From Escherichia phage MIZ4, in the sequence record OR167180: 64,000 bases of DNA. The stretch is one strand, 5' to 3'. Under the pieces are notes generated by a model. That model did no database searches and had not been told where the DNA came from. It saw nothing but the letters and a program-made list of their open reading frames with translations. Shown one piece after another: positions 6,725 to 26,898 of the stretch. The translations under genes were made by a program, and so were the position numbers. Numbering within the stretch: the first letter of the stretch is position 1; every line of letters starts with the position of its first letter.

Positions 6725-6968
6725 TAATCCACTCCGCAATCACACATTCCATAATATTAAATGCTAACACATCTTCATCAATGTTGTAAACACTTGCCGC
6801 CTTCACTTTAACTAATGTGTCTCTGCGATCTGGCAACATGATCACATAATCCAGTGTCGCCGGATCATATGTCATAAAGGGATCAACATAAATCCCTTTA
6901 TTCAATGCCAGATATTCGCGAAGACCTTCTATAACCCTGTGTCTAAGGTAGGTCATCGATAGAATCAT
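6705..6968 (-). CDS. hypothetical protein
   Basis: 87-aa ORF between 47 and 46. Confidence 0.3.
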   Translation of the reverse strand: MILSMTYLRHRVIEGLREYLALNKGIYVDPFMTYDPATLDYVIMLPDRRDTLVKVKAASVYNIDEDVLAFNIMECVIAEWINGKVKF

Positions 6969-10897: not shown

Positions 10898-12367
10898 CTA
10901 TTCCCCATTACCATTATACTTTCTTTGCTTAGTTATCCACACTCTAACCATCTCTACTGATTCACCGTCAGAGGGATCAAGAGTTTTTCCTTTTTTCTTC
11001 ATGCGGTACTTAAATCCGTTAAATCTTGCATTCTCTTGCTCGTTAAAGTCGAACATCTTTTTAAATGATTTTCTCCCTTTACGCTCACCGCATTCTAGCG
11101 GAATCATTCGGTCTGTTATTACATTGGCATTAGGTAGAAACGTTTTTAGATAATCTACCAACGCCCAATCAGGAACATATAGATTAACATTCTCCTTGCT
11201 CTCGTTGTCTCTCAGGTTACAACGCAAACATAATTGAAATGCTGGTTCCAGATAATCAGACACATGACGCGCTTTCAAAAACTCATTTGTCGGGAGATCA
11301 CAACTATTAGCAAGACCTTTTAAAATATCAATCTCCCATCGTTGAGGGTTAAAGCTGAACATCACAGCAACATTTTTATGATGAATGTAAGAGTTAAGAC
11401 CATAAGATCCGTAAGGTATCCGCTCACCAATACCATTTGTACACGCTTCACGGTCCCGATTCACGGTATAAATGAAGTCATCACCACATTCATTTTTAAC
11501 CATATCAACCAGACGTTCAAAGGTATTGTTTGTTTCTGACTGGTGACGCGACCATCGTTCGGAGTCCGTCATAAGGATGATGTTAACTCTATCTGTATTT
11601 TTATACTCTTTGAAATATAGTCTGGATTCTAGCGCACTCGGAACAAAATCGCAATTTGCATAGTATCGTAGATACTTCCCACTATATGTATCAAAGAGAT
11701 TTGCACATGCTATCGTAACCTTTTTAAAGTCTCCCCACGTACCGTGTTTGTTATCGTTCAAGAAAACAATTTTCGACCCATTCTTCCGGTGGCCTTCGTT
11801 ATGTTTTACCATAACGTTGATTTTCTTCTCTAATAACGCCTCATAAAGCCCTCTAAGAGAAGAATCGATCATATCAGTACCATCCTTTGCACTTTCTATC
11901 TTTTCTTTGATAGCGGCCTTCTCAGAGTCTTTTAGAACTAAGTTCTGTAGGCATTCCGATTCGTCGGCGATTGGTTCGCAATGCTTCGTGATAAGTTCAA
12001 GATTAGACTTAAACGGATACTCATTAAATTCAACCAGTTGAGGAACTTCATCAATGTAAAGAGCATAATCACCAAACATTTTTGAACGTTCCATATTAGA
12101 TAACGCTGTATGTGTAATGAATATCACATCAGCACCATCTTTAACTGATTGCATTATCGACGCTTGCACTGTCTTAAGGCTTCTTAGTCTTGTGCTATCA
12201 ATCAAGACAGCACGACCGCCCATTCTTTTAAACTTATTGTAAGATTGTTCACTTAAAACACGAGATGGCGAAGCAATAACCGCTTTTTCTTTTGTCTCTA
12301 GGACGTGGGAAAGTATAGCATCAGTTTTCCCCGCCGCTGGCAATGCGATTAATGTTTCAATCTTCAT
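10898..12367 (-). CDS. P-loop NTPase of unknown function
   Basis: 489 aa; Walker A-like LPAAGKT near N-terminus, Walker B-like LYIDEV; no T4 counterpart recognised. Confidence 0.5.
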   Translation of the reverse strand: MKIETLIALPAAGKTDAILSHVLETKEKAVIASPSRVLSEQSYNKFKRMGGRAVLIDSTRLRSLKTVQASIMQSVKDGADVIFITHTALSNMERSKMFGDYALYIDEVPQLVEFNEYPFKSNLELITKHCEPIADESECLQNLVLKDSEKAAIKEKIESAKDGTDMIDSSLRGLYEALLEKKINVMVKHNEGHRKNGSKIVFLNDNKHGTWGDFKKVTIACANLFDTYSGKYLRYYANCDFVPSALESRLYFKEYKNTDRVNIILMTDSERWSRHQSETNNTFERLVDMVKNECGDDFIYTVNRDREACTNGIGERIPYGSYGLNSYIHHKNVAVMFSFNPQRWEIDILKGLANSCDLPTNEFLKARHVSDYLEPAFQLCLRCNLRDNESKENVNLYVPDWALVDYLKTFLPNANVITDRMIPLECGERKGRKSFKKMFDFNEQENARFNGFKYRMKKKGKTLDPSDGESVEMVRVWITKQRKYNGNGE

Positions 12368-12672
12368 TAGAAACCCTTACGTCGTGCTTTCTGGCATTTC
12401 TTGATCATTTTATCAGAAATTTCGCGCTTAGGTGCAATCTCTTTCACACCGAAAGCACTAATGCCAAATTCAGAGAGAATATATTCAACTAACAATTCAC
12501 GCACACGCGCTTTACCGATATTCACGCCGTTATTTTTCAGATATGTCTGGCCTTCGACTTGCATCAGATCTAAATCAGCGTCGGTAATATTGATTTCTTC
12601 CATGCGCCCAAATCGAGAATAAACCATGTGTGCGATTGCATTGTGTACTAACATAATATATTCCTCACTCAA
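12367..12672 (-). CDS. hypothetical protein
   Basis: 101-aa ORF whose stop overlaps the NTPase start (ATGA). Confidence 0.35.
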   Translation of the reverse strand: MSEEYIMLVHNAIAHMVYSRFGRMEEINITDADLDLMQVEGQTYLKNNGVNIGKARVRELLVEYILSEFGISAFGVKEIAPKREISDKMIKKCQKARRKGF

Positions 12673-12834
12673 GAATTACTTAATGATACTTACTTTACCA
12701 GATCCATGACAATGAGCGCAACACCCATCACCACGCAATCCTGTTCCGTTACAGTGTTTACACTTCTTCAACGGTAAAGCCATTATAGCAAATAAAGCAA
12801 TAATGAACACCGAAACTAAATTCTCAATAATCAT
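12673..12834 (-). CDS. small membrane-anchored protein with CxxCxGxG zinc-ribbon repeats (not in ORF track)
   Basis: hand translation MIIENLVSVFIIALFAIMALPLKKCKHCNGTGLRGDGCCAHCHGSGKVSIIK; fills a gap between neighbouring genes. Confidence 0.35.
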
Positions 12835-13093
12835 AAATCTCCCTCAGTTCTTTATAGCCTCCAATGTGCTCGTTGTCAATGAATATCTGGGGGTATACAA
12901 ATCGGAGGCTCTTTGAGTTCAGCCTCCCCGCCAGTTCTTCAATCATATCACGGTCGGGAATAATGTCAACCCCAACCTGCTTGAATACTGGTTTAAGTGT
13001 ATACGGAATACCCAGATCATCCAGTAGCTTCATTGCACTAATACAACCATAACAATGATAAGCCTCTTTCGGTATGCCGTATATCTCGATCAT
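12824..13093 (-). CDS. glutaredoxin-like protein (NrdH-like)
   Basis: CxxC active site CYGC; glutaredoxin fold motif VYPQIFIDNEHIGGY. Confidence 0.7.
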   Translation of the reverse strand: MIEIYGIPKEAYHCYGCISAMKLLDDLGIPYTLKPVFKQVGVDIIPDRDMIEELAGRLNSKSLRFVYPQIFIDNEHIGGYKELREIYDY

Positions 13094-13587
13094 TTCTCAG
13101 CCTTTAATCTTTCTAGTTCTTCTTCCAGTTCCTTGATCCGTTGGTCACGTTCAAAGTCACGCTGCAACTTAGTGGCGAATACTCGTTTAAACTGATTGTA
13201 ATCATCGATTTTAAACACTTCTTCTTCGCCATAGCGACGCACAGAAACTTCGTAGTTGTTGAAAAATTGTTCCAACATTGCATCAGTAGTCAGTTCTGAC
13301 GACACCACTTTAAAATAACGTTCTTCGGATTGCAAAAACCAGTTGTGCGCGTATTCCCGTACATCATCAACATCTCGACAGGTGTATGTTTTTCCATCAA
13401 TTTCAATCGCAGAAACATATTCGATATCTGATGCAATTTTTTCAAAAGCGATAACTTTAAATGTACGGTCACCGATAAAGTCTGCTATTGCATCATTTGC
13501 AACACTGGTTGCAAAGGCTTTCCGCGCTCGCTCGTTTTTCCACTGATAGGTCATACCAACAACAAACATATTACCATCAACAAACAT
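13090..13587 (-). CDS. member of paralogous repeat-domain family (1 module)
   Basis: VGMTYQWK..F, IEIDGKTYT, ERYFKVV; C-terminal coiled coil. Confidence 0.45.
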   Translation of the reverse strand: MFVDGNMFVVGMTYQWKNERARKAFATSVANDAIADFIGDRTFKVIAFEKIASDIEYVSAIEIDGKTYTCRDVDDVREYAHNWFLQSEERYFKVVSSELTTDAMLEQFFNNYEVSVRRYGEEEVFKIDDYNQFKRVFATKLQRDFERDQRIKELEEELERLKAEK

Positions 13588-13588
13588 A

Positions 13589-14413
13589 TTACCATCCTCG
13601 CTCTTTACCAATCAAAAATTCAACTTCACGACGTTTAATGTCTTCTTGAAGGTCTTTAATCTTCTGGCGATCTTGCATTATTTCGTCCATCTTGTCAAGT
13701 GCTGCGATGAAATCATCGAAACGTTCAAAGGTTTTACCTTCATTTGCTTCGCCAAATTTAACCATTGTCAGGCCGTAACGACTACTAAACAGACGTTTCA
13801 ACTGTCCAACGATTTTAGAATCAGTGGTTATAACTTCCAATTCTTCTACTTCACGAAAGAATTTTCTATCAGAATCAATAAACCAGCTAGTTCCTTTATG
13901 GTTGCTATCTTCGGTTGCACTCATTAGAGTATGGTCTTTACCATCAATTTCAATTACATCAATTTGCCCACATGGACGAACATTTTTAACAGTAAAAGGT
14001 CTATAATTTATTGCTCGTGCAATAACATAATTAAGATTAGATACGTTTTCAGCATAATGGCAGAAGTCGGTCATAGCATTCACGTCTTTCCAAGTATAAG
14101 TTTTACCAACTTCCCATTTCTGGGGAACTTCTTCAACTTCACGAAAGAATTTTCTATCGAATGGACTAAAGAAATATGTTGCAGTCCAAATGTCTTTTCC
14201 TGTAGCAGTTTTCGCCGTATGATAAACACCGTCTAGCTCTATTGCATTAATCCAACCGTTGCCATCGATCTCGATGATGGTAAATGGCTTGTCACCAATA
14301 GCTGCACTAATATCGCTGTTAAGTGGAGAAAGAACACCTTCTCCGTTAGTAATAAACTCAGTTTTAGCGTTTACATCTTTCCAAGTGTAAGTTTTACCAA
14401 TTTCCCATTTCAT
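13589..14413 (-). CDS. member of paralogous repeat-domain family (2 tandem modules)
   Basis: MKWEIGKTYTWKDVNAKTEF..DRKFFREVEE and QKWEVGKTYTWKDVNAMTDF..DRKFFREVEE inside one protein. Confidence 0.5.
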   Translation of the reverse strand: MKWEIGKTYTWKDVNAKTEFITNGEGVLSPLNSDISAAIGDKPFTIIEIDGNGWINAIELDGVYHTAKTATGKDIWTATYFFSPFDRKFFREVEEVPQKWEVGKTYTWKDVNAMTDFCHYAENVSNLNYVIARAINYRPFTVKNVRPCGQIDVIEIDGKDHTLMSATEDSNHKGTSWFIDSDRKFFREVEELEVITTDSKIVGQLKRLFSSRYGLTMVKFGEANEGKTFERFDDFIAALDKMDEIMQDRQKIKDLQEDIKRREVEFLIGKERGW

Positions 14414-14425
14414 AATATATTCCCC

Positions 14426-14890
14426 TTAACCGATTTTATCAAGTTCGTTTAATGCTTTCTCAGCTTCCTGTATAGCTTGCACCCTTTCCGGCATTTTGTC
14501 AAGAAAATCTTTCAACTCTTCAAAACTGGAGATATGACGCAAGGCATTAGCACCGATAGCCGCATGTGATTTGCATTCAAAGCGAATTTTATAATTATCC
14601 ATAGCCAATTTGAGAAGATCAATTAATTTAGATTCTTCTGGAATAATAATTTCTTCAAATCTGCTACGGTCATGATCCAGAAACCAACAAGATAGACCTA
14701 CATCGGTTGAACTCATATAAGTTCCATCATGAAGATAAACAGACCGCACGTATCCTTTTTTCGCATCAACCGACGCAACTTTAAACGGTAATCGCAGATA
14801 TTTCAAATAATCAACATCATACCATTTAAAAAATTGATTTGCATCTTTTACATCTTTCCACGCATAGGTCTTACCAGCTTCCCATTTCAT
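14426..14890 (-). CDS. member of paralogous repeat-domain family (1 module)
   Basis: MKWEAGKTYAWKDVKDANQF; HDRSRFEEI. Confidence 0.45.
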   Translation of the reverse strand: MKWEAGKTYAWKDVKDANQFFKWYDVDYLKYLRLPFKVASVDAKKGYVRSVYLHDGTYMSSTDVGLSCWFLDHDRSRFEEIIIPEESKLIDLLKLAMDNYKIRFECKSHAAIGANALRHISSFEELKDFLDKMPERVQAIQEAEKALNELDKIG

Positions 14891-14894
14891 AATA

Positions 14895-15431
14895 TCATCT
14901 CTCATTTTTGATACGTGATTCTAATTGGATCATACGGTCGCGCGTTTGTTTGTATTCTCGGATAGCACCGATCCGGCTAGGCATACCATCCAGTACGCTC
15001 TTAATACCTTCTAGGGTAGTAATTTTGGCAATGCTATTATGTAACCCCATCTTATCGATCAACTGAATGTCGTAGGCTTCCATAAGCAGACCCAGGCGTT
15101 CTAAAGTTAGGTCTTCTTCTTTTTCTTCCGAATCTGGAATCTTATGTTCAATAGTAACTTCGGTAAAGAAACGACGCTCACCCGACCAAAACCACACGCC
15201 GGAACAGCCAATAGGGGATTCTTTTAACGTCATAGAGTCGAAATTACTACCAATAATAGTAATTTCTCTAACATCACCATCATCGTCAAGGTCTTCTACC
15301 CTAAACGGGCGACCAGCCAACAAGTCAACAATACATCTGTTAATAGACGACGAAAATTTAGTCAGTTCGGCTTTCGACGCTTCGCATTCAATCTTGTAAG
15401 TTTTACCAACTTCCCATTCCATAATAATCAC
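14895..15431 (-). CDS. member of paralogous repeat-domain family (1 module)
   Basis: EWEVGKTYKIECE; GERRFFTEV. Confidence 0.45.
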   Translation of the reverse strand: MIIMEWEVGKTYKIECEASKAELTKFSSSINRCIVDLLAGRPFRVEDLDDDGDVREITIIGSNFDSMTLKESPIGCSGVWFWSGERRFFTEVTIEHKIPDSEEKEEDLTLERLGLLMEAYDIQLIDKMGLHNSIAKITTLEGIKSVLDGMPSRIGAIREYKQTRDRMIQLESRIKNER

Positions 15432-15432
15432 C

Positions 15433-15942
15433 TCAAATAATTTTCACTGGAATACTATTAACAATCTTGTATTGTACTTGATTGTCAGACCCCCGCCACG
15501 GCTTCTTCGTTGGCATATCTTTAATATAACGCCCATCGATGAACATGTCAACTGATTCTACAATTTTTCTTTGCTCATCATTCAATTGGTCAAGGGTATA
15601 ACCAGACCATAGCCAAATATCTTTATTTGGCATCCATGATTTTACTTCATCGATGATCCGCTGTACACCCTTTAAATTGCGTTTATACAGTGGATCGCCA
15701 CCTAAGAATGTTAGCCCCTGAATAAAATCAGGTCTAAGCAGATCCAGAATCAATCCCATTGTATCATCGGTGAATGGTTCCCCGTTCTTAGGATTGAGTA
15801 GGCTAGCATTAAAGCAACCATCACATGCGTGTGAACATCCGGTAACGTAAAGGGAGACTCTCACTCCCTCACCGTTCACCATATCACAATCTTTAATATC
15901 GGCATAGCGTAGTTTGCCGTATGTATCAGAACTCATATTCAA
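15433..15942 (-). CDS. nrdG: anaerobic ribonucleotide reductase activating enzyme NrdG (radical SAM)
   Basis: radical-SAM CxxxCxxC (CSHACDGC); GLTFLGGDPLY, KDIWLWSGY, KKPWRGSDNQ match T4 NrdG. Confidence 0.85.
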   Translation of the reverse strand: MNMSSDTYGKLRYADIKDCDMVNGEGVRVSLYVTGCSHACDGCFNASLLNPKNGEPFTDDTMGLILDLLRPDFIQGLTFLGGDPLYKRNLKGVQRIIDEVKSWMPNKDIWLWSGYTLDQLNDEQRKIVESVDMFIDGRYIKDMPTKKPWRGSDNQVQYKIVNSIPVKII

Positions 15943-16078
15943 TTACCCCGAACTCGTTTACAATCTGCGCTTTATAGTAACCACCGCGAGATGCTAATAG
16001 ATAAGCTGGGCTTAGGTATTCGTATTCACGGATTTCTACTTGTGCGTTTTCAGTTTCCCAAATCAGTAAAGTCCACAT
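15926..16078 (-). CDS. small hypothetical protein
   Basis: 50-aa ORF starting at the cassette RBS (GGAGAATCAAAT ATG); the ORF-track N-terminal extension runs through the promoter. Confidence 0.3.
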   Translation of the reverse strand: MWTLLIWETENAQVEIREYEYLSPAYLLASRGGYYKAQIVNEFGVIEYEF

Positions 16079-16120
16079 ATTTGATTCTCCTGTAAAGTTG
16101 TATCTCGTCTTGATGAATAT

Positions 16121-16149
16121 AGTATAGGGGATCTCGTGATCCCCGTCAA
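16121..16149 (-). promoter_or_regulatory. early promoter cassette, TTGACG-17-TATACT, spacer palindrome GGGGATC..GATCCCC
   Basis: minus strand TTGACG GGGATCACGAGATCCCC TATACT. Confidence 0.55.
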
Positions 16150-16153
16150 GCAT

Positions 16154-16687
16154 TTATTTTAAATTTTTTCGAATGTATTCAGACCATTCCTTCCCTGTCA
16201 TTTCGGACCCATTCTGGAAACTGAAATATTCATACGGCATCGAGTCAAGATAAAACAGGATCATACATCGCGCCATATAATACCAATCACGATTAAAGTA
16301 AACTACGTTATCGCCAGTACCATCAACCCCTTTATCATAACCATCGCGGGTACGGGCGACCCATTGAATAGTATCAGTTTTCTCACGGATAGTAACAGGT
16401 TCCCAATATCCAGCACATCCAGCATGACCACACGAACAAGTAAGGAAATATTGACCTTTTGCTTTGTTGTCATCCCATTCACGATGAATTGGTTTGATTT
16501 CGTGAAACAGTGCCAAACAATCATGATTATGCAACACTGGCTTACCATCAATCAATGCATGGAATGTATACAAACGACCCGTAGACAAATAGCTATCCTC
16601 ACGCTCAACCAGTTCAATAGCAATCTTTTTAGCTCGTTCTTTGTGTCGTTGTGCTTTACGTTTACGGTTTAATGATTTCATAGTCAC
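16154..16687 (-). CDS. hypothetical protein
   Basis: 177-aa ORF. Confidence 0.4.
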   Translation of the reverse strand: MTMKSLNRKRKAQRHKERAKKIAIELVEREDSYLSTGRLYTFHALIDGKPVLHNHDCLALFHEIKPIHREWDDNKAKGQYFLTCSCGHAGCAGYWEPVTIREKTDTIQWVARTRDGYDKGVDGTGDNVVYFNRDWYYMARCMILFYLDSMPYEYFSFQNGSEMTGKEWSEYIRKNLK

Positions 16688-16698
16688 CTCACATTATT

Positions 16699-17238
16699 TC
16701 AAAGATCGCGATATTGTACATTATGAAAATGAGAACTTGCATTACCAATATTGTAGATAACAAATTCTTCATCCGGCGCTTGCGCTACAAATTGAGTATG
16801 AGCAACCGCTACGACTTTAAAAATACGATCCGTGATCTTGTGCTTAATTTCTGCCCCTACTTCCATAGGAACATATTCATTTGTTTCTGTTTCAGTCGCA
16901 AAACAGCCATCTTCTTCATAAGCACGAACAAATCGGTCGCAATCAGTACGCTTAACAAATTCAAGAGTATATAATTCTCGTGAATTGTCGGTATAGACCA
17001 ATACAGAATTATTATGATAGCGAATCACATACAGGTTATTATCATCGTCAATTACGCAAAAGCTACGGATTCCTTCGCCTTGACTCCAGCAGACATTAAC
17101 CACCGTTCCTCTAATAAAAAAACTTTCCTTTAAATTAAAACTAGTCAATGTGCTAGCGTGCATTTTAACAACAACACCATCACCAATTTCCAGTTTACGA
17201 AGTTTAACTTCTTTGCTCAGTACACAAAACATCATCAT
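16699..17238 (-). CDS. hypothetical protein
   Basis: 179-aa ORF downstream of cassette 17268-17295. Confidence 0.4.
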   Translation of the reverse strand: MMMFCVLSKEVKLRKLEIGDGVVVKMHASTLTSFNLKESFFIRGTVVNVCWSQGEGIRSFCVIDDDNNLYVIRYHNNSVLVYTDNSRELYTLEFVKRTDCDRFVRAYEEDGCFATETETNEYVPMEVGAEIKHKITDRIFKVVAVAHTQFVAQAPDEEFVIYNIGNASSHFHNVQYRDL

Positions 17239-17267
17239 GTTGTCCTCTCGTTGTTTTCGATGTGAGC

Positions 17268-17295
17268 ATTATACATTAGCTAATCATATTGTCAA
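17268..17295 (-). promoter_or_regulatory. early promoter, TTGACA-16-TATAAT
   Basis: minus strand TTGACA ATATGATTAGCTAATG TATAAT, directly after terminator 17311-17332. Confidence 0.55.
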
Positions 17296-17310
17296 CACCC
17301 CAAAACGAAA

Positions 17311-17332
17311 AGCCGACCCTTTCGGATCGGCT
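17311..17332 (-). terminator. rho-independent terminator downstream of nrdD
   Basis: AGCCGATCC GAAA GGGTCGGCT hairpin then T-run on the minus strand. Confidence 0.6.
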
Positions 17333-17337
17333 AAAAA

Positions 17338-19200
17338 TTACATGTGCTTAACGCGGTTTACCATCTCGGAGTGTTTCCCGTGGTTGAATGGACGCAGATC
17401 AACAGATCCAAGATATCCACTAACGCGACGGATAACATTCATCTTTTCCAGATTGTCATTGCCGCAATCAGGACAAACAAAACCAGACTCGGTCGCTCTC
17501 ATTTCCTTAGTAGATCCGCATACATGACATACATCAGAAGGAGTATTAACACCGAAGTAGTGCAATTTATCCATTGCATAATCGACTACAGTTTCAAGAC
17601 CTTTCAGGTTGTTTTTCATGTCTGGGAACTCAACATAAGAGATCATGCCACCGGACGCCAGCCAGTGATAATCTTTCTCAAAGTCGATTTTCTCAAATGG
17701 AGTGACTTTCCGGTCTACGTCAAGGTGGAATGAGTTTGTGTACCAGTCTTTATCGGTAGCACCCTTAACAATACCAAACTGCTCTCTGTCCAGTCGATTA
17801 AATCGATAGCAAAGGCTCTCGGCTGGCGTACCGTAAAGACTAAACCCAAGTCCGGTTTCGTCCTTCCATTTTTCAGTATAATGACGCAAGATCTTAAGAA
17901 TATGTTTACCGTATCGCTGCGCATCTTCCGAATCAAACGGATGAACACCAAACAGGACGCTCAATACCTCATGTAAACCAATATATCCAAGAGAGATACT
18001 AGCGCGACCATCTTTCAACACTTCCAAAATTTCATCGTTTTGATGAATACGGAAAAATGCACCTTCTGTATACAGCACCGGAGCAACATTGGCTTTAGCC
18101 CCTTTTAAAGCGTCTACGCGACTCATGAGCGCATCAAAGCAAATATGCATACGATTAGCTAGCTCTTGTTCGAATAGCTCAATTCTGCGCATTACAGACG
18201 CTTTACCAGCACGACGAGCGGCAATAAGGGCAATACGCGGAAGATTCAGAGTCACAACACCTAAGTTATTACGTCCGTCTAATACTTCCTCGCCTTTCTC
18301 ATTATGCCACACACCCAGGAAGCTACGACAACCCATCGGGCTAACCGGAACACTAGATCCAGTGATGCTACGGTTATTCTTCGCAGAGATATAATCAGGG
18401 TAAAGACGCTTACTAGAACATTCCAATGCAAGTTGCTTAATGTCGTAGTTCGGATCTTCCGGTTTAAGGTTTAATCCTTCTTCTAAGAACATCACCAGCT
18501 TAGGAAACACCGGAGTGATACCATCTTTACCTAAACCTTTAGTTCGAACGTTCAGGATCGCTTTCTGAATCAGTTTTTCTTCCCAGCTAGTACCCATACC
18601 AAAGGTTAAAGTCACAAAAGGCGTTTGACCGTTGGTGGAGAACAAAGTGTTGATTTCATATTCCAACGCTTGATACCCGTCTAGCGTTTCTTTTTCTGTC
18701 TTCTCTTGTGCATAGAGAGTATCAGCTTTGATTCCGTAGGTCTCGGCATCAGCAAGGTGTTTATGATATGTTTTCTCAACGTATGGCGCTAAAACCTGAT
18801 CGATGTTTGCAATTGTGGTCCCGCCATATTGATGACTTGCCACCTGTGCGATAATTTGAGCGGTTACAGCACAAGCAACGCCGATTGATTTCGGACTTTC
18901 GATTTGTGCGCTACCCAATTTAAAACCATTCTCTAACATGTCTTTGAGATTAACAAGACAGCAGTTAGTAAACGGCATAGCGGGTGCATAATCCATATCA
19001 TGATAATGAATGTCACCGTCTACATGCGCTTTATAGATGTGCTCAGGTAACACGGTTTTAGCAATCTGTTTAGACACAGCACCAGCAATCAGATCTCGAC
19101 GTGTCGGGAATGTTCGCGCGTCTTTGTTCGCGTTCTCTTTGCTTACTTCGTTTTCTTTACCCGTTGCGATCTCTGTAATGTCTTTGATTAGTTTTTCCAT
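17338..19200 (-). CDS. nrdD: anaerobic (class III) ribonucleotide reductase NrdD, uninterrupted
   Basis: 620 aa; C-terminal zinc ribbon CHVCG..CPDCG and glycyl-radical motif RRVSGYLG. Confidence 0.9.
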   Translation of the reverse strand: MEKLIKDITEIATGKENEVSKENANKDARTFPTRRDLIAGAVSKQIAKTVLPEHIYKAHVDGDIHYHDMDYAPAMPFTNCCLVNLKDMLENGFKLGSAQIESPKSIGVACAVTAQIIAQVASHQYGGTTIANIDQVLAPYVEKTYHKHLADAETYGIKADTLYAQEKTEKETLDGYQALEYEINTLFSTNGQTPFVTLTFGMGTSWEEKLIQKAILNVRTKGLGKDGITPVFPKLVMFLEEGLNLKPEDPNYDIKQLALECSSKRLYPDYISAKNNRSITGSSVPVSPMGCRSFLGVWHNEKGEEVLDGRNNLGVVTLNLPRIALIAARRAGKASVMRRIELFEQELANRMHICFDALMSRVDALKGAKANVAPVLYTEGAFFRIHQNDEILEVLKDGRASISLGYIGLHEVLSVLFGVHPFDSEDAQRYGKHILKILRHYTEKWKDETGLGFSLYGTPAESLCYRFNRLDREQFGIVKGATDKDWYTNSFHLDVDRKVTPFEKIDFEKDYHWLASGGMISYVEFPDMKNNLKGLETVVDYAMDKLHYFGVNTPSDVCHVCGSTKEMRATESGFVCPDCGNDNLEKMNVIRRVSGYLGSVDLRPFNHGKHSEMVNRVKHM

Positions 19201-19214
19201 TGTATCACCTATGA

Positions 19215-19236
19215 AAAAGCGGGATTTCTCCCGCTC
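19215..19236 (-). terminator. hairpin plus T-run immediately upstream of the nrdD RBS
   Basis: minus strand GCGGGAGAAATCCCGC TTTTTCA then AGGTGA RBS. Confidence 0.4.
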
Positions 19237-19244
19237 GTTGATAG

Positions 19245-19739
19245 TTATTTTACCAGTTCTGCTAATTCTTTTTCCGCCGCTTCCAGTTCAGCTTTAAGCT
19301 GTTTAATCTCTTGTCGCTTCTTATTAGCGGCTTCCTGCTTACTATTTCGGATAACCTGATCTAGATACAACTCCCAATCCTGAATATTTTTGATAATGTA
19401 TCCGTCAACATTAATTGGTCGGAGATTCAGTACAGCTTCCAGTTTAGTCGCAAAAACTTTAATTGCTGGTGTGAAGTATTCATATTCGTTATCTTCAAAC
19501 CAATAACCTAGACTTGCATTATCAATACGAAGACGAAGTTTAAGATCAAGGTCTTTATCGTCGGTGTAAAGATCTTTCACCTGCCCCATCGAGCTAACAA
19601 CAACTTTAAAACGAATTTTATCTACACCGCCAAAAACATCTTCAAGAATATCAGCAATTGAGCTATTAGCGCAAGATTGGTCGCTGAATGCGTCAAGGTT
19701 TTCTTTAGTTACAGTATACCAAACATCTTGTACCCACAT
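19245..19739 (-). CDS. hypothetical protein with C-terminal coiled coil
   Basis: 164-aa ORF downstream of cassette 19770-19797. Confidence 0.4.
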   Translation of the reverse strand: MWVQDVWYTVTKENLDAFSDQSCANSSIADILEDVFGGVDKIRFKVVVSSMGQVKDLYTDDKDLDLKLRLRIDNASLGYWFEDNEYEYFTPAIKVFATKLEAVLNLRPINVDGYIIKNIQDWELYLDQVIRNSKQEAANKKRQEIKQLKAELEAAEKELAELVK

Positions 19740-19769
19740 AATATAATCCTCTCGTTGTTAAGTGGGAGT

Positions 19770-19797
19770 ATTATAGCATACTCCCTTCGCATGTCAA
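19770..19797 (-). promoter_or_regulatory. early promoter cassette, TTGACA-16-TATAAT, palindrome GGGAGTAT..ATACTCCC spanning the -10
   Basis: minus strand TTGACA TGCGAAGGGAGTATGC TATAAT ACTCCC. Confidence 0.55.
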
Positions 19798-20972
19798 GCA
19801 CTAACTTTTTTCTTTACTGCTTTCACCTTCTGGCGAATTGCTCGAATCTCTTCGATCTCTTTTTCAGTATCTTTAACAATTTCTTTGCGATTCTGAATAT
19901 CTTTATCGAGATTATCATCAAGTTTAGGCAGCATGTCAATCAAGAACTTTTTAAGGTCTTTCAGGTTGCGAATAACAGTACCTTCACCCATTACCGCCAC
20001 GCCTACACCATCCGGCAGATCACCAAACAGTTTAACCAGTTCAGACAGATGATCATGATCTTCTAGTGCTTCTTCCGGTTCAGATGGCAGTTCAACAAAG
20101 TAATAACGTTCATCATTGCTGATCAGGTGATACCAGCAAAGCCCAAAAGATTTAGGAGTATATTCTACACCACCAACTTCAACTGCGTCAACACTTCCAT
20201 AATCATCTACTTTAGTTACCTTAAATCCTTGTCCCAGCTTTTGAACAATTTCAACAACATGACTTGATACAGTTTCAGCGGTAAACCAATATGGCAAATT
20301 ATGCTGATTTGGCTTGTAGCGTTCACCTACTTTAAATCTCTGACCAGCCGCTTGCATAGAATGAAATTGTTGTTTCGTGATTTCCGCGAAGTATTCAAAT
20401 TCGCCACCATCAAACACACAAGCCCATTGATCACAAAAACGATCTGCCTTAACAGTTTCACCTTTCGCGGTGATCATGGTAGCTGATCCGTGCAATTCTT
20501 CTTCAACTAAAAAGCCATATTCGACAAAATCAACAAGTTTCATAGCTTCTTTGTGATCTGGATCATGCTCTCCCCAGAATCGCTTAAATTCTTGCAAACC
20601 TTCTGGGGTAAACGAATAACATTTACCTTTTTCAAAGTAAGTCGGCATTGCATCCTCTTTCTTGTTCATCGCTTCGTATGCCTCTTTTGAGATGCGTTTA
20701 AAGTATTTACGCTCATTGTGCATAATCATAGTAGCCCAATAATCAACAATATCATTAGCGGAATAAACTACATCTCCAGCTTCAATAGTAATAACATGAC
20801 CGTGGTCATCTTTTTCTAATACTTTAAAGCCCTTTTCTACGATTTCAGCAACTCGAATATGACCACGGCGCGAAGCATCGGTCAGAATAATTGAATAGCG
20901 AGAAAAGTCTAGAAACTCATCTTTACCGCCTTCACGGAATGCATAGTAATGACCTTCAAAGAATTTAGCCAT
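19794..20972 (-). CDS. member of paralogous repeat-domain family (3 tandem modules)
   Basis: three modules each with F.xG.xY...F ... GFxVxxxD..G ... ERKYFKRI / EFEYFAEI / ERYYFVEL; C-terminal coiled coil. Confidence 0.5.
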   Translation of the reverse strand: MAKFFEGHYYAFREGGKDEFLDFSRYSIILTDASRRGHIRVAEIVEKGFKVLEKDDHGHVITIEAGDVVYSANDIVDYWATMIMHNERKYFKRISKEAYEAMNKKEDAMPTYFEKGKCYSFTPEGLQEFKRFWGEHDPDHKEAMKLVDFVEYGFLVEEELHGSATMITAKGETVKADRFCDQWACVFDGGEFEYFAEITKQQFHSMQAAGQRFKVGERYKPNQHNLPYWFTAETVSSHVVEIVQKLGQGFKVTKVDDYGSVDAVEVGGVEYTPKSFGLCWYHLISNDERYYFVELPSEPEEALEDHDHLSELVKLFGDLPDGVGVAVMGEGTVIRNLKDLKKFLIDMLPKLDDNLDKDIQNRKEIVKDTEKEIEEIRAIRQKVKAVKKKVSA

Positions 20973-21003
20973 AATATAATCCTCTCGTTGTTTAGATGGG
21001 AGT

Positions 21004-21032
21004 ATCTTACTACTCCCGTTTCATCATGTCAA
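21004..21032 (-). promoter_or_regulatory. early promoter cassette, TTGACA-17-TAAGAT
   Basis: minus strand TTGACA TGATGAAACGGGAGTAG TAAGAT ACTCCC. Confidence 0.5.
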
Positions 21033-21035
21033 GCG

Positions 21036-21596
21036 TTAAAGTGACTTTTTAATCTCTTTCAGTTCTTCCACTTTCTCGGCGCTGAATTTAGCGTAGGTAT
21101 CATGTCGAATAATTTCACTTTCAAGAAAGGTTTCCAGTCGAGATCTATTTTCAATAAGGAACTCTTTCAGGTCTTCCGCGTTCTTGACAAAGATTTTATT
21201 GTCGGTAATGTCATCTTCAATCGCAAAGGAGATAGAGCGAACTTTACCAAACAAGTTAATCAGATCTTCCAGAGATTCTTCTTTCTTAACTGGTTTCATT
21301 TCTTCAAACTGCTTTTTAGTGATGCGTTTAAAGTATTTGCGCTCGTTTGCAGCAATCAGAACAGATGCACCTTCATACCCATGAGTTTCTACCAGATACA
21401 CACGCCCCATCGCATCAACAGTGAGAACTTTAAAGCCGTTACAAAGCACGTCATACAAGAACTTATTATGTTGCGGACATCGTTTGATAAATTCTGCGGC
21501 TGTTTCTGCACTACGGAAAGTGTAATAACGACCTCGTTCAAAAACAGCATCATTTGAAGACTTAGCCGGATACAATTTATACATTTTCTGTACCAT
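21036..21596 (-). CDS. member of paralogous repeat-domain family
   Basis: FERGRYYTFRSAETAAEF, GFKVLTVDAMGRV, NERKYFKRITKK. Confidence 0.45.
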   Translation of the reverse strand: MVQKMYKLYPAKSSNDAVFERGRYYTFRSAETAAEFIKRCPQHNKFLYDVLCNGFKVLTVDAMGRVYLVETHGYEGASVLIAANERKYFKRITKKQFEEMKPVKKEESLEDLINLFGKVRSISFAIEDDITDNKIFVKNAEDLKEFLIENRSRLETFLESEIIRHDTYAKFSAEKVEELKEIKKSL

Positions 21597-21610
21597 AATA
21601 TAATCCTCTA

Positions 21611-21883
21611 TCATTTCACTAATTGAACAGCACGAAACAGAATGCGGTCACACGGAAGCAGCATAAATTCCCAACGCGGATCAAAGTCTTTAGCGGTGTA
21701 TGTTTTCCCATCAACAGAGATTTCACTTACATAACCAATAGGTGACACTTTAAGAACAGTAAATCCATTCTTGATTGCTTCGTAGGTATCTTTCAGACCT
21801 TCGTAGTCATCCTCTAGGAAGTCTTTACGTGCTTGCTCAGATTTAAAAACATAGGCCACACCAGCTTTAAACATCTTACGCAT
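21611..21883 (-). CDS. member of paralogous repeat-domain family (single short module)
   Basis: FKAGVAYVFKSEQARKDF, GFTVLKVSPIGYVSEISVDGKTYT. Confidence 0.4.
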   Translation of the reverse strand: MRKMFKAGVAYVFKSEQARKDFLEDDYEGLKDTYEAIKNGFTVLKVSPIGYVSEISVDGKTYTAKDFDPRWEFMLLPCDRILFRAVQLVK

Positions 21884-21914
21884 TGTTGATTCTCCTTCTT
21901 GATTAGATGGGAGT

Positions 21915-21943
21915 ATTTTACTACTCCCGTTTCATGTTGTCAA
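21915..21943 (-). promoter_or_regulatory. early promoter cassette, TTGACA-17-TAAAAT
   Basis: minus strand TTGACA ACATGAAACGGGAGTAG TAAAAT ACTCCC. Confidence 0.55.
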
Positions 21944-21946
21944 CTC

Positions 21947-22420
21947 CTATCTTAATCTTTGTATGAATTGTTTCTTATACTTCTTCGTGATTTCTTCTCG
22001 TGTATCAGCGTCGCAGTATTCGAAACCTTCTGCGTCCATAATATCAACCATCTCCGCGCGTGTCAAGCGTGAAAATCGTTTTACTTTATCAACAGCATAT
22101 TGAGGATGTAAATGATTGTTGGTGTAGTCTCCTTTGATGTAATTAACATAGTTTGTAGCCCAAACAACGAAATCAGCACCTAAAGCACCAACACCAAACC
22201 GTTTAAAGTCTCCGGTCAACGATCCTTCTAGGCGGTTGCAACACGAATGAAGCAATCCCCTTACGCGGCCTTGCCCTTTCCCATCTAGATCATGATCATG
22301 GTCAAGATGGTTTTTGCTCATATCCTCAAAAAGTGGCAATTGACAAAGGGGGCAAATGCCCCCCTGTTTTTCGAATAGTTCTTGTTTGTACTCTTTAGCA
22401 CTCTTAGCAGTCAGTAACAT
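21947..22420 (-). CDS. 49: recombination endonuclease VII (gp49)
   Basis: C.LCQ, HLDHDHDL.G, RGLL..CN, ADFVVW match T4 endo VII; start at MLLTAK as in T4. Confidence 0.8.
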   Translation of the reverse strand: MLLTAKSAKEYKQELFEKQGGICPLCQLPLFEDMSKNHLDHDHDLDGKGQGRVRGLLHSCCNRLEGSLTGDFKRFGVGALGADFVVWATNYVNYIKGDYTNNHLHPQYAVDKVKRFSRLTRAEMVDIMDAEGFEYCDADTREEITKKYKKQFIQRLR

Positions 22421-22444
22421 AAATTCACCCTCCAAAGAAGGTAT

Positions 22445-22726
22445 TTAACCATTAATCTTGTTTTTGACTACAAAGGATCTGAACTCATCAAAACCACCTA
22501 TATAATCACCATTATAGAAAATCTGCGGCATGGTGGCAATAACTTCTACCCCTGCGCGATCCTGAATGTCGGCAATGATAGAATCAATCTTTACCGGACG
22601 ACCGTTTTCGTCCACACCATCATTAACCGGAATGTAGATGTAAGGGATCTTACGCGATTCACAAAGGCGCTTTGCATTCTGGCAATACTTACAGTTGTAA
22701 CCTTCAAAACCAAAAATTTCTACCAT
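22445..22726 (-). CDS. nrdC: glutaredoxin/thioredoxin NrdC-like
   Basis: CKYC active site, MPQIFYNGDYIGGF. Confidence 0.7.
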   Translation of the reverse strand: MVEIFGFEGYNCKYCQNAKRLCESRKIPYIYIPVNDGVDENGRPVKIDSIIADIQDRAGVEVIATMPQIFYNGDYIGGFDEFRSFVVKNKING

Positions 22727-22734
22727 GTTATACC

Positions 22735-23547
22735 TCAATCTACGTTAGTTACATAAACTTCTTGCGTATCAGAAGACTTACCACCTGAACGATCTAGGCA
22801 ATAGGTCTTATTCAACAAGACGCAGTTTAAATCATTCCGCTTGATAAAGTCAAGAAGATGATCATTTACCTTTCCCTTATGATGTGTGACATTACTGATA
22901 CCAAACTGAAAACCACGCGCCATAATAGATTCTACCCACTGATAGAATTTAATCTCTTCTTCTTCACTCCAGAACTTATTATATTCTGCCGATGTGATCC
23001 AATATGGCGGGTCCAAATAAACGAAATCACCTGGCAAGATCTCGATCTCGTCATAGCGACCAGACGTAAAACTGATTCGACCGTCTTTGTTTTCTTCCTT
23101 AAAATTCAGGACACGCTCTACCGCGTTTTCGTTAAAAGTCCGGCGACCAAAATTAGCATTAAATTCTCCCTTCCTGTTATGGCGGTTAATGTTGCTAAAA
23201 CTGTGCTGAATCAGAACAAACAGAGATAGCGGATCTGGATTCTCATTATACTTCTTACGGAATGCCATGTAAGCGTCTTTATCTTCGCGAGACAAACCAT
23301 TTTCGGCAATAATACGCTTGATCGTAGAAACCGGATCAGGACACTCGTCAATCGCTTTGTACGCGTCAATTAAGCGGTGATCATAGTCATTAGCCAGCAC
23401 ATCCCCTTCTACGTACAGAGACACGCTCAAGCCACCACAAAAGGCATCGACAAAGCGGTTATAGTGCTTAGGGAAATACTTACTAACACCAGGCAATAAC
23501 TTTTCCTTATTGCCCGTATAGGGAATTAAACCTAATGCTTTCTTCAT
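22735..23547 (-). CDS. dam: DNA adenine methyltransferase Dam
   Basis: YTGNK, NRFVD.FCGGLSV, catalytic DPPY (FVYLDPPYWI), YNKFWSEE match T4 Dam. Confidence 0.85.
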   Translation of the reverse strand: MKKALGLIPYTGNKEKLLPGVSKYFPKHYNRFVDAFCGGLSVSLYVEGDVLANDYDHRLIDAYKAIDECPDPVSTIKRIIAENGLSREDKDAYMAFRKKYNENPDPLSLFVLIQHSFSNINRHNRKGEFNANFGRRTFNENAVERVLNFKEENKDGRISFTSGRYDEIEILPGDFVYLDPPYWITSAEYNKFWSEEEEIKFYQWVESIMARGFQFGISNVTHHKGKVNDHLLDFIKRNDLNCVLLNKTYCLDRSGGKSSDTQEVYVTNVD

Positions 23548-26422: not shown

Positions 26423-26676
26423 AGTTTCCTCAACCAGTTATTAAAGCGAGTAAACCATGATGCTTTTCGTGCTTCTTTTACTTTATATGCACGCAAACCA
26501 CTGAAACACCATTCATAATCATCACTGAAACATGATTCAACAGGAACACCCGCATTTCGTAGTTCTCTGGTCTTTATCATAAATCCTTGACATAAGGGGC
26601 GACCTTCAACAATGATAGGAAGTTTAACTTTTTCCATGAAAGTATACCCAGCACGGTCAATAATTTCAATCTTCAT
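26419..26676 (-). CDS. small paralog family B member
   Basis: MKIEIIDRAGYTFMEKVKLPIIVEGRP. Confidence 0.4.
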   Translation of the reverse strand: MKIEIIDRAGYTFMEKVKLPIIVEGRPLCQGFMIKTRELRNAGVPVESCFSDDYEWCFSGLRAYKVKEARKASWFTRFNNWLRKL

Positions 26677-26694
26677 AATATAATCCTCAATTGA

Positions 26695-26898
26695 TTACAC
26701 TTCCCAGGCTTCTTTGCTAAGAAAACACCATTTATACTCAGGAGAATAACCTTTAATCGGTACTCCAGCTTTTTGTAATTCCTGCGTTTCAACAACATAA
26801 TCATGCCCATACGGTCGGCCTTCCACGATGATAGGAAGTTTAACACCTTTCATGAAAGAATATCCACCATCGTCAAAAATTTCAATTTTAATTTTCAT
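26695..26898 (-). CDS. small paralog family B member
   Basis: MKIKIEIFDDGGYSFMKGVKLPIIVEGRP. Confidence 0.4.
   Translation of the reverse strand: MKIKIEIFDDGGYSFMKGVKLPIIVEGRPYGHDYVVETQELQKAGVPIKGYSPEYKWCFLSKEAWEV

What the first reader, a model, noticed from the sequence alone, without database searches (positions are those of the whole stretch)
19794..21883. Second cluster of the same repeat-domain family, each gene behind its own promoter cassette
Genes at 19794-20972 (three modules), 21036-21596 and 21611-21883 carry the same module as the 13090-15431 array (for example NERKYFKRISK and NERKYFKRITK, GFKVL.KDD.G.V). Each is preceded by a type B promoter cassette (19770, 21004, 21915). With the first cluster this gives eight paralogs and about twelve modules within 9 kb around the anaerobic RNR genes.
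Basis: seen in the sequence. Interest (0 to 1): 0.65.

Follow-up and report, generated by a model that had tools for sequence, protein, structure and literature searches.

The report
Expanded GoF-like early phage gene family
This stretch of an RB49-like (Krischvirus) coliphage holds four conserved early genes of the already described T4 GoF/Frd.2 protein family. Three of the four sit behind the already described PeSL promoter cassettes, so the finding is real but largely known biology.

Summary
The window is Escherichia phage MIZ5 (Krischvirus, RB49-like). The three genes are real at the stated coordinates on the minus strand and correspond to RB49 ORF060, 059 and 058. A fourth member, ORF057 (19245-19739), lies just outside the finding.

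- **Shared module:** Statistics support it. A profile built from the first cluster alone scores all four genes above 1000 shuffles. The window holds 8 genes and 11 modules.
- **Identity of the module:** It is the N-terminal SH3-like barrel of T4 GoF/Frd.2/MotB.1, described by Kim et al. 2025. RB49 ORF058 has been labelled frd.2 in GenBank.
- **Cassettes:** They are PeSLs (Arbiol et al. 2010). There are three, upstream of 060, 058 and 057. Gene 059 has none.
- **Conservation:** Gene order is fixed in 56 of 58 Krischvirus records. dN/dS is 0.0-0.4.
- **Copy-number change:** Phage KFS-EC lost 060+059 by recombination between two PeSLs. It lost 051 by recombination between paralog 5' ends.
- **Function:** Biochemical function is unknown. 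By homology I infer early, non-essential binding proteins, possibly acting on mRNA metabolism.
- **Possibly undescribed:** I found no description of the local expansion, the 2- and 3-barrel proteins, or the KFS-EC junctions.

Interest is low to moderate.

The parts
21611..21883 (-). ORF060 homolog, 90 aa: a single GoF-like barrel module with no C-terminal domain
   Evidence: Leave-one-out profile E 1.9e-13. Cluster-1 profile 39.6 bits against a shuffle maximum of 7.4. Closest paralog is 048 (38% over 78 aa, E 1e-8).
21036..21596 (-). ORF059 homolog, 186 aa: one barrel module (aa 17-105; basic, net +6) plus a C-terminal helix/hairpin/long-helix domain. It has no promoter cassette of its own and is probably co-transcribed with 060.
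19794..20972 (-). ORF058 homolog (labelled 'frd.2' in RB49), 392 aa: three tandem barrel modules (about nt 20664-20972, 20358-20651 and 20073-20348) plus a C-terminal domain (19797-20072)
   Evidence: domain E-values 3e-8, 0.018, 1e-9. The AlphaFold2 model shows three barrels at pLDDT about 75-89, linkers below 50, and a 55-residue terminal helix. Orthologs are all 391-392 aa.
19245..19739 (-). ORF057 homolog, 164 aa: the fourth member of this cluster (one module plus a helical C-terminus). It lies outside the finding's coordinates.
   Evidence: Leave-one-out E 1.2e-6. Cluster-1 profile 19.0 bits against a shuffle maximum of 11.3. Shares phrog_3710 with other members.
21884..21943 (-). PeSL cassette upstream of 060: -35 TTGACA, stem GGGAGTA/TACTCCC around -10 TAAAAT, then the ribosome-binding site
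   Evidence: 11 of 12 consensus positions. Stem -11.9 kcal/mol. Conserved in RB49 and Phi1.
20973..21032 (-). PeSL cassette upstream of 058: -35 TTGACA, the same stem, -10 TAAGAT, ribosome-binding site GAGGATTATATTATG
   Evidence: (10 of 12). It is 76% identical over 79 nt to the 21865-21943 copy (repeat family D8). It is the crossover partner in the KFS-EC deletion.
19740..19797 (-). PeSL cassette upstream of 057: the -35 TTGACA overlaps the TGA stop codon of 058; 8-bp stem; -10 TATAAT
   Evidence: 12 of 12, with TG extension. Stem -14.5 kcal/mol, z -4.7.
19214..19235 (-). Intrinsic terminator after 057, before nrdD
   Evidence: Hairpin AGCGGGA-GAAA-TCCCGCT followed by UUUUU, -17 kcal/mol, z -4.5. 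Annotated as a terminator in GEC-3S. The consensus terminator scan did not list it.
13090..15422 (-). First cluster: ORF048 (13090-13587), ORF049 (13589-14413, two modules), ORF050 (14426-14890) and ORF051 (14895-15422). There is no internal cassette; the genes lie downstream of nrdG in one apparent operon.
   Evidence: The cassette repeat families have no copy between 13090 and 15431.

Best explanation
The region is the second of two local expansions of the GoF/Frd.2 family of T4-like phage early proteins, in an RB49-like phage.

**Shown here**
- Each protein starts with one to three copies of a roughly 90-residue SH3-like beta-barrel homologous to the N-terminal domain of T4 GoF.
- Most continue into a helix, beta-hairpin and long-helix tail.
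- The genes are real and under purifying selection.
- They sit in three transcription units headed by strong sigma-70-type early promoter / stem-loop cassettes (PeSLs): 060+059, 058, and 057 followed by a terminator.
- Family size changes by homologous recombination between PeSLs and between the conserved 5' coding repeats of paralogs or modules.
- Divergent alleles are swapped in at domain scale.

**Inferred**
- The proteins are made in the first minutes of infection.
- They are non-essential accessory factors.
- Each barrel is a ligand-recognition module with a hypervariable surface.
- The long C-terminal helix mediates self-association.
- By homology with GoF, the only member with a phenotype, the most likely field of action is post-transcriptional control: phage mRNA stability, or Rho/decay machinery. 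I think this works by binding a protein or RNA partner rather than by catalysis.

**Probabilities:** family identity and expression logic about 0.9; the mRNA-metabolism role about 0.3.
For: **Family identity**
- The module profile hits T4 GoF residues 4-91 at 35 bits, against a maximum of 9.1 in 1000 shuffles.
- PHROG families labelled goF are hit.
- The 52 BFVD matches are almost all from T4-like phages (two are from other large myoviruses) and include an annotated GoF.

**Expression:** promoter consensus 10-12 of 12; stems; PeSL promoter and terminator activity was shown experimentally in phi1/RB49 (PMC2839356).

**Real genes:** dN/dS 0.0-0.40; conserved order in 56 of 58 records.

**Dynamics**
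- KFS-EC carries a hybrid PeSL junction and a crossover inside the paralog 5' repeat.
- Single-module variants of two-module 049 exist.
- Synonymous divergence (dS) is 0.27-0.80 in 059 and 048 against 0.04-0.11 in flanking genes, with domain-scale mosaicism.

**GoF phenotype:** the D25Y mutant stabilises gene 41 mRNA post-transcriptionally (PMC12152347).
Against: - No member of this cluster has any experimental data.
[quoted passage not shown] The mRNA role therefore rests on one gain-of-function allele.
- Ten of the 11 modules have no net positive charge: nine are clearly acidic (net -3 to -9) and one is near neutral (-1). That argues against general RNA binding. Only the 059 module is clearly basic, at +6.
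- Common ancestry of all seven C-terminal domains is not robust. The leave-one-out C-terminal profile recovers only 050 and, weakly, 058. Significant pairs are only 058-059 and 050-051.
- Self-association through the helix is inferred from a medium-confidence model only.
Confidence: 0.7

Rival explanations
1. The proteins are a diversified set of host-takeover or anti-defence binders whose targets have nothing to do with RNA. On this view the expansion, the hypervariable barrel surface and the allele swapping reflect an arms race with host factors.
For: - SH3-like barrels of the FeoA/DtxR type, the closest folds, act mainly in protein-protein contacts (established knowledge).
- Most modules are acidic.
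- The position equivalent to GoF D25 is hypervariable across 84 family modules.
- 059 and 048 exist as strongly divergent alleles.
- Copy number varies between phages.
- The genes are early, non-essential-type genes in a hyperplastic region (PMC2839356).
Against: - No match to PADLOC models, which cover defence systems rather than anti-defence proteins, or to NCBIfam.
- dN/dS is below 0.4 with no sign of positive selection at gene scale.
- The cluster is fixed in 56 of 58 genomes, which is unusual for arms-race cargo.
- No target is known.
Confidence: 0.3
2. The barrels are true LSm/Hfq-like RNA chaperones. One-, two- and three-barrel proteins joined by the C-terminal helix would assemble ring-like multi-barrel RNA-binding particles that protect phage mRNAs.
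For: - Kim et al. call the fold LSm-like and list Hfq as a neighbour.
- The GoF suppressor change G84R restores the commonest family residue class: K/R in 35 of 84 modules, G in 3.
- At the position equivalent to D25Y, 5 of 11 window modules carry an aromatic residue.
- The 059 module is basic.
Against: - The model has two helices inserted after strand 1 instead of the LSm N-terminal helix.
- Inter-barrel packing in the three-barrel model is not confident (pTM 0.42, linkers below 50).
- AlphaFold3 gave no confident GoF multimers.
- Most modules are acidic.
Confidence: 0.12
3. The two clusters flank nrdD and nrdG because the proteins serve the anaerobic ribonucleotide reductase, for example through FeoA-like iron or Fe-S supply or as assembly factors.
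For: - Eight of nine family genes in MIZ5 lie within 9 kb around nrdD, nrdG and nrdH.
- The best structural neighbours are FeoA and iron-dependent repressor SH3 domains.
Against: - In T4 the three family members lie near genes 39, motB and frd, and nrdD abuts gene 49 with nothing between.
- No Pfam FeoA match.
- No conserved His or Cys in the modules.
- Arbiol et al. attribute the variability around nrdD to PeSL-rich plastic regions.
Confidence: 0.05
4. The shared motifs are chance resemblances between unrelated small ORFs.
For: Only the middle module of 058 is not above shuffles with the cluster-1 profile: 80 of 1000 shuffles score as high.
Against: - For all four genes, 0 of 1000 shuffles reach the real score.
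- Leave-one-out E-values are 1e-6 to 7e-27.
- Pairwise BLAST E-values go down to 1e-12.
- Two independent confident barrel models.
- Purifying selection.
Confidence: 0.01

Closest known systems
T4 GoF (ComC-alpha) and T4 Frd.2, with MotB.1: the 'LSm-like fold' early protein family of Kim et al. 2025 (PMC12152347)
   Same: Homologous N-terminal barrel of about 90 residues, with the conserved Y, F, F..V, G and F core. Nearest solved folds are the same (FeoA/IdeR). The barrel is N-terminal and joined to a variable C-terminal part by a flexible linker. The genes are early genes of T4-like phages. No homologs were found outside phages.
   Different: - There are eight clustered paralogs here (nine in the genome) against three scattered genes in T4.
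- Two- and three-barrel tandem proteins occur here. The paper does not mention them.
- The C-terminal helix/hairpin/long-helix tail has no match in T4.
- MIZ5 has no goF or motB.1 at the T4-syntenic positions.
- Identity to GoF is only 16-25%.
PeSLs (promoter-early stem-loops) of RB49/phi1 and other T4-like phages (Arbiol et al. 2010, PMC2839356; Comeau et al. 2014, PMC4122927)
   Same: Intergenic cassettes of about 60 nt containing a sigma-70 consensus promoter, a stem-loop overlapping the -10 box and a Shine-Dalgarno sequence. They sit in a plastic region next to nrdD. Recombination between two tandem copies deletes the interposed genes (the KFS-EC junction), exactly the published mini-circle excision model.
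   Different: Nothing essential. The specific KFS-EC 49/058 hybrid junction and the involvement of GoF-family genes were not found in the two papers.
FeoA and the C-terminal SH3-like domain of DtxR/IdeR-type metalloregulators
   Different: No sequence relationship (no Pfam hit). No conserved metal ligands. Two helices are inserted after the first strand. The context is a phage early gene.
Hfq / Sm-LSm proteins
   Same: A small bent five-stranded barrel. The label 'LSm-like' is used in the literature for GoF.

Membership tests
GoF/Frd.2/MotB.1 early-protein family (Kim et al. 2025) | [quoted passage not shown] | tested here: met
   The window-module profile scores GoF at 35 bits against a shuffle maximum of 9.1. 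[quoted passage not shown]
GoF/Frd.2/MotB.1 early-protein family (Kim et al. 2025) | Predicted bent five-stranded antiparallel barrel whose nearest solved folds are FeoA-type SH3-like domains | tested here: met
GoF/Frd.2/MotB.1 early-protein family (Kim et al. 2025) | Barrel at the N-terminus, joined by a flexible linker to a variable C-terminal domain | tested here: met
   Architecture. 060 lacks a C-terminal domain. 049 and 058 carry 2 and 3 barrels, an extension of the described architecture.
GoF/Frd.2/MotB.1 early-protein family (Kim et al. 2025) | Early expression | not testable with these tools
   Only promoter consensus and the published activity of other PeSLs are available. There are no transcript data for these genes.
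GoF/Frd.2/MotB.1 early-protein family (Kim et al. 2025) | Restricted to T4-like phages | tested here: met
   Of 77 clusters at E <= 1e-3 among 1.84 billion proteins, about 65 are small proteins with the family architecture and about a dozen are repeat-inflated giant adhesins. The library carries no names or context, so a phage origin could not be checked for most. BFVD hits are almost all from T4-like phages, with two from other large myoviruses.
GoF/Frd.2/MotB.1 early-protein family (Kim et al. 2025) | Effect on mRNA level or stability (known only for GoF D25Y) | not testable with these tools
   Needs experiments.
PeSL regulatory cassette | Sigma-70 consensus -35 and -10 boxes with 16-18 nt spacing | tested here: met
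   12, 11 and 10 of 12 positions at 19797-19770, 21943-21915 and 21032-21004.
PeSL regulatory cassette | Stable stem-loop between or overlapping the promoter boxes | tested here: met
   Stems of 7-8 bp enclosing the start of the -10 box, -11.9 to -14.5 kcal/mol, z -2.9 to -4.7.
PeSL regulatory cassette | Intergenic position, from the stop codon of the upstream gene to the Shine-Dalgarno sequence and start of the downstream gene | tested here: met
   Read directly from the sequence. The stop codon of 058 overlaps the -35 box.
PeSL regulatory cassette | Recombination between copies creates insertions or deletions of the interposed genes | tested here: met
   The KFS-EC junction is a hybrid of the 49/060 and 059/058 cassettes.
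PeSL regulatory cassette | Promoter and terminator/attenuator activity in vivo | not testable with these tools
   Shown for other PeSLs only. These stems lack a U-tract.
LSm/Hfq fold | N-terminal helix followed by five strongly bent strands, with structural similarity to Sm or Hfq chains | tested here: not met
LSm/Hfq fold | Ring-shaped homo-oligomer | not testable with these tools
   No multimer prediction is available here. Kim et al. obtained no confident multimers.
FeoA (Pfam PF04023) | Sequence match to the family model | tested here: not met
   No Pfam hit at E <= 1 for FeoA in any of the 8 proteins.

The most novel reading that the evidence does not exclude
The Krischvirus paralogs may be natural 'active' versions of GoF. 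On this reading, barrels carrying an aromatic residue at the GoF-D25 position and a basic residue at the GoF-G84 position (for example 049 module b, 051 and 058 module a) would bind RNA or RNA-decay factors. The 1-, 2- and 3-barrel proteins, joined through their C-terminal helices, would build multi-barrel Hfq-like assemblies that set phage mRNA lifetimes. PeSL and repeat recombination would tune the dosage and repertoire of these assemblies.
Probability: 0.07. Interest if true: 0.7.

Novelty: new member of a known kind. Interest (0 to 1): 0.3.

Why it matters
GoF has been an unexplained T4 early gene since the 1970s, and wild-type GoF shows little activity in assays.

- **More material to test.** A phage genus carrying eight or nine diversified copies offers a much wider set of natural variants than T4's three genes. 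The set includes multi-barrel forms and one basic barrel. Several variants naturally carry the residue types created by the GoF suppressor mutations.
- **A worked example of gene-family turnover.** The KFS-EC junctions show, at base-pair resolution, how PeSLs and conserved coding repeats add or remove members of a family.

Otherwise the region is ordinary. It is a conserved, already annotated block of accessory early genes.

Tried and rejected
- **Curated libraries:** Pfam, NCBIfam and PADLOC gave nothing above noise.
- **PDB by sequence:** only chance calmodulin and RepX hits at E > 0.003.
- **Foldseek against the PDB:** nothing below E 0.19.
- **AFDB50 fold library:** unavailable.
- **Rfam:** no RNA family in 12000-23000.
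- **Indexed homolog search:** The search for homologous proteins with the module alignment returned only near orthologs.
- **Distant multi-module relatives:** tblastn of P0023 and P0046 found no sequenced phage, so their genomic context is unknown.
- **Giant RTX/VCBS adhesins in the exhaustive search:** rejected as repeat-inflated chance matches.
- **A single C-terminal domain family shared by all seven longer proteins:** downgraded after leave-one-out failed. My first C-terminal profile hits were circular.
- **Positive selection as the cause of 059 and 048 divergence:** rejected. dN/dS is 0.22-0.31, with synonymous divergence (dS) raised 3- to 10-fold, which points to imported alleles.
- **The + strand ORFs overlapping the genes:** these have no support.
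Full report
**Source and coordinates**

The 2.8 kb around the finding is 100% identical to Escherichia phage MIZ5 (OR167181.1), a Krischvirus (RB49-like, Straboviridae). It is 89-98% identical to 55 other records of that genus. The window corresponds to record positions 96001-160000.

All genes discussed are on the minus strand. The three ORFs named in the finding coincide exactly with deposited CDSs. They correspond to RB49 ORF060, ORF059 and ORF058. ORF058 is labelled frd.2 in the RB49, JSE and Phi1 GenBank records. RefSeq and Pharokka-type annotations and 059 'goF mRNA metabolism modulator'.

**Is the shared module real?**

Yes.

- All-against-all BLAST links the genes with E-values down to 1e-12.
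- A profile built only from the first cluster (048-051) scores 060, 059, 058 and 057 at 39.6, 17.4, 35.4 and 19.0 bits. The maxima of 1000 residue shuffles of each protein were 7.4-11.3, and none reached the real score.
- Leave-one-gene-out profiles recover every gene at E 1e-6 to 7e-27 among the 993 six-frame ORFs of the window. The best unrelated ORF scores E >= 0.0045.

The 392-aa protein has three modules. The middle one is the most divergent: it is not above shuffles with the cluster-1 profile and reaches E 0.018 in leave-one-out. It does fold as a barrel.

The count in the window is 8 genes and 11 modules in 8.8 kb: 048 has 1, 049 has 2, 050 has 1, 051 has 1, 057 has 1, 058 has 3, 059 has 1 and 060 has 1. 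A whole-genome scan adds a ninth, distant member beside the gene 41 helicase, outside the window.

**The cassettes**

Each has a 7-8 bp GGGAGTA/TACTCCC stem that encloses the start of the -10 box. The strict pattern occurs 4 times in the window against 0.02 expected.

The statement 'each gene behind its own cassette' is wrong.

- The cassettes precede 060, 058 and 057.
- Gene 059 starts 14 nt after the stop of 060. It has only the shared ribosome-binding string GAGGATTATATTATG.
- The 19770 cassette lies downstream of 058. Its -35 box overlaps the stop codon of 058, and it drives 057, a family member the finding's span omits.
- A strong hairpin with a U-run follows 057. It is annotated as a terminator in GEC-3S.

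The layout is therefore three units: 060+059, 058, and 057 plus terminator. The first cluster has no internal cassette and lies downstream of nrdG.

These cassettes are the PeSLs of Arbiol et al. 2010. That paper describes about 52 per RB49/phi1 genome, five subclasses by stem position, experimentally shown promoter and terminator activity, and nrdD as a PeSL-associated plastic locus.

**What the module is**

- The module profile matches T4 GoF residues 4-91 at 35 bits, against a shuffle maximum of 9.1.
- That trio is the family described by Kim et al. 2025 (PMC12152347). Their paper reports N-terminal five-stranded barrels called 'LSm-like', with FeoA-type SH3 domains as closest solved folds. 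All three genes are early and non-essential, and wild-type function is unknown.

BFVD gives 52 matches at E <= 1e-3. Almost all come from T4-like phages of many hosts, including an annotated GoF; two come from other large myoviruses.

The exhaustive profile search of 1.84 billion cluster representatives finds only 77 clusters at E <= 1e-3. About 65 are genuine small proteins of 58-392 aa. About ten of these have two modules and two have three. The rest are repeat-inflated hits to giant adhesins. Pfam, NCBIfam and PADLOC have nothing.

**Architecture**

In 058 the three barrels are predicted with pLDDT about 75-89. The linkers are below 50 and pTM is 0.42, so the picture is beads on a string. 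The protein ends in a helix, a beta-hairpin and a 55-residue helix. 059 shows the same C-terminal topology.

I first thought one C-terminal domain was shared by all seven longer proteins, but that profile was circular. Leave-one-out recovers only 050 (4e-6) and 058 (0.024). C-terminal-only comparisons are significant only for 058-059 and 050-051. Collinear full-length matches to phrog_5347 suggest common ancestry for six of them. I rate this as probable, not shown. T4 has no match to this tail.

**Evolution**

The order 49-060-059-058-057-nrdD-055-054-053-nrdG-051-050-049-048-nrdH is identical in MIZ5, RB49, Phi1 and GEC-3S. The second cluster is collinear in 56 of 58 records and the first in 53 of 58. 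In T4, nrdD abuts gene 49, and the three family genes lie elsewhere.

All eight paralogs have dN/dS of 0.0-0.40, so they are functional genes.

059 and 048 are far more divergent between phages than their neighbours: 71-87% and 75-78% aa identity against 98-99% for neighbours. Their synonymous divergence is raised 3- to 10-fold, and the differences are confined to one domain. This indicates imported alleles, not fast evolution.

The one exception to collinearity is informative. KFS-EC lacks 060+059. Its 49/058 intergenic region matches the 49/060 cassette upstream and the 059/058 cassette downstream, with the crossover in the shared TTGACA...ATGAAAYGGGAGTAGTAA core. This is the published PeSL mini-circle excision mechanism.

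KFS-EC also lacks 051. That crossover lies inside the conserved 5' coding repeat, ATGGAATGGGAAG|CTGGTAAGACC, which encodes MEWE|AGKTY.

Metagenomic single-module variants of two-module 049 retain either module a or module b. So family size and module number change by homologous recombination at cassettes and at conserved coding repeats. The genes have not moved to new loci.

**Function**

Nothing here is experimentally characterised. The only phenotype in the family is GoF(D25Y), and G84R by genetics. That allele lets T4 grow on certain rho mutants and stabilises gene 41 mRNA post-transcriptionally. Wild-type GoF and MotB.1 do little.

Two alignment methods agree on the equivalent positions. 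The D25-equivalent is hypervariable family-wide and aromatic in 5 of 11 window modules. The G84-equivalent is K/R in 6 of 11 window modules and in 35 of 84 family modules, and G in only 3. G84R thus restores the family norm. This is a lead, not evidence.

Ten of the 11 modules carry no net positive charge; only the 059 module is clearly basic, at net +6. That weighs against general RNA binding and for protein partners.

I commit to this reading: early, non-essential binding proteins with a variable barrel surface, probably self-associating through the terminal helix. Their most likely field of action is mRNA stability and termination (about 0.3), with unrelated host-factor or anti-defence binding as the main rival (about 0.3). 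A link to the anaerobic reductase is unlikely (about 0.05).

**Novelty**

Both components are already described, and the genes are annotated. In the papers I could search, I did not find:

- the local expansion to eight or nine paralogs in Krischvirus;
- the tandem two- and three-barrel proteins;
- the partly shared C-terminal tail;
- the KFS-EC junctions.

I file the finding as new members of a known kind, of low to moderate interest.

Noticed in passing
L011 (KFS-EC, NC_055757) 6775-6837 compared with window 20973-21032 and 21884-21943: KFS-EC lacks ORF060+059. Its 49/058 intergenic region is a hybrid of the two MIZ5 PeSLs, which marks a clean PeSL-to-PeSL deletion of 911 bp.
   Followed up: yes
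L011 about 1190-1201 compared with window 14890-14905 and 15422-15433: KFS-EC also lacks ORF051. The crossover lies inside the conserved 5' coding repeat (MEWE|AGKTY) shared by 051 and 050, which leaves a chimeric first few codons.
   Followed up: yes
MIZ5 record 89661-90296 (-), outside the window (L005 39661-40296): A ninth, distant GoF-like gene (211 aa, E 6e-7 to 2e-5) lies beside the gene 41 helicase. BFVD lists a 211-aa ECD7 protein named 'Dc2' that may be its ortholog (same length; sequences not compared). MIZ5 has no goF or motB.1 at the T4-syntenic place between gene 39 and dexA.
   Followed up: partly
window 13589-14413 (ORF049); proteins P0001 and P0002: Metagenomic relatives of the two-module ORF049 carry only module b (P0001) or only module a (P0002). 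Phage AV108 shows a gap of about 310 nt in the first cluster. Module copy number therefore varies.
   Followed up: partly
window 21036-21596 and 13090-13587: ORF059 and ORF048 are mosaic among Krischvirus phages. Divergence is confined to the barrel or to the tail, and synonymous divergence is 0.27-0.80 against 0.04-0.11 in flanking genes. This suggests domain-scale allele replacement.
   Followed up: partly
window 22445-23547 compared with L001 11246-13077 (GEC-3S): GEC-3S has an HNH homing endonuclease gene between nrdC and dam. MIZ5, RB49 and Phi1 lack it.
   Followed up: no
window 26597-26676 and 26813-26892: An 80-nt direct repeat, 80% identical and 216 nt apart, spans the starts of two small neighbouring genes. 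It looks like another tandem paralog pair in the early region.
   Followed up: no
window 16154-16681 and 16699-17238 (ORF054, ORF055): Two unknown genes lie between nrdD and nrdG, each behind a promoter cassette. They are not family members by profile (E > 3). ORF055 looks by eye as if it might contain small beta-barrel repeats of another kind.
   Followed up: no
proteins P0016, P0027, P0032, P0033: Giant RTX/VCBS-type adhesins score up to 88 bits against the module profile through 7-17 repeated partial matches to profile positions 25-67. This is a repeat-inflation artefact to filter out in any census of this family.
   Followed up: partly
window 19214-19235: The consensus terminator scan missed the clear hairpin-plus-U-run terminator after ORF057. 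Folding and the GEC-3S annotation both support it.
   Followed up: yes
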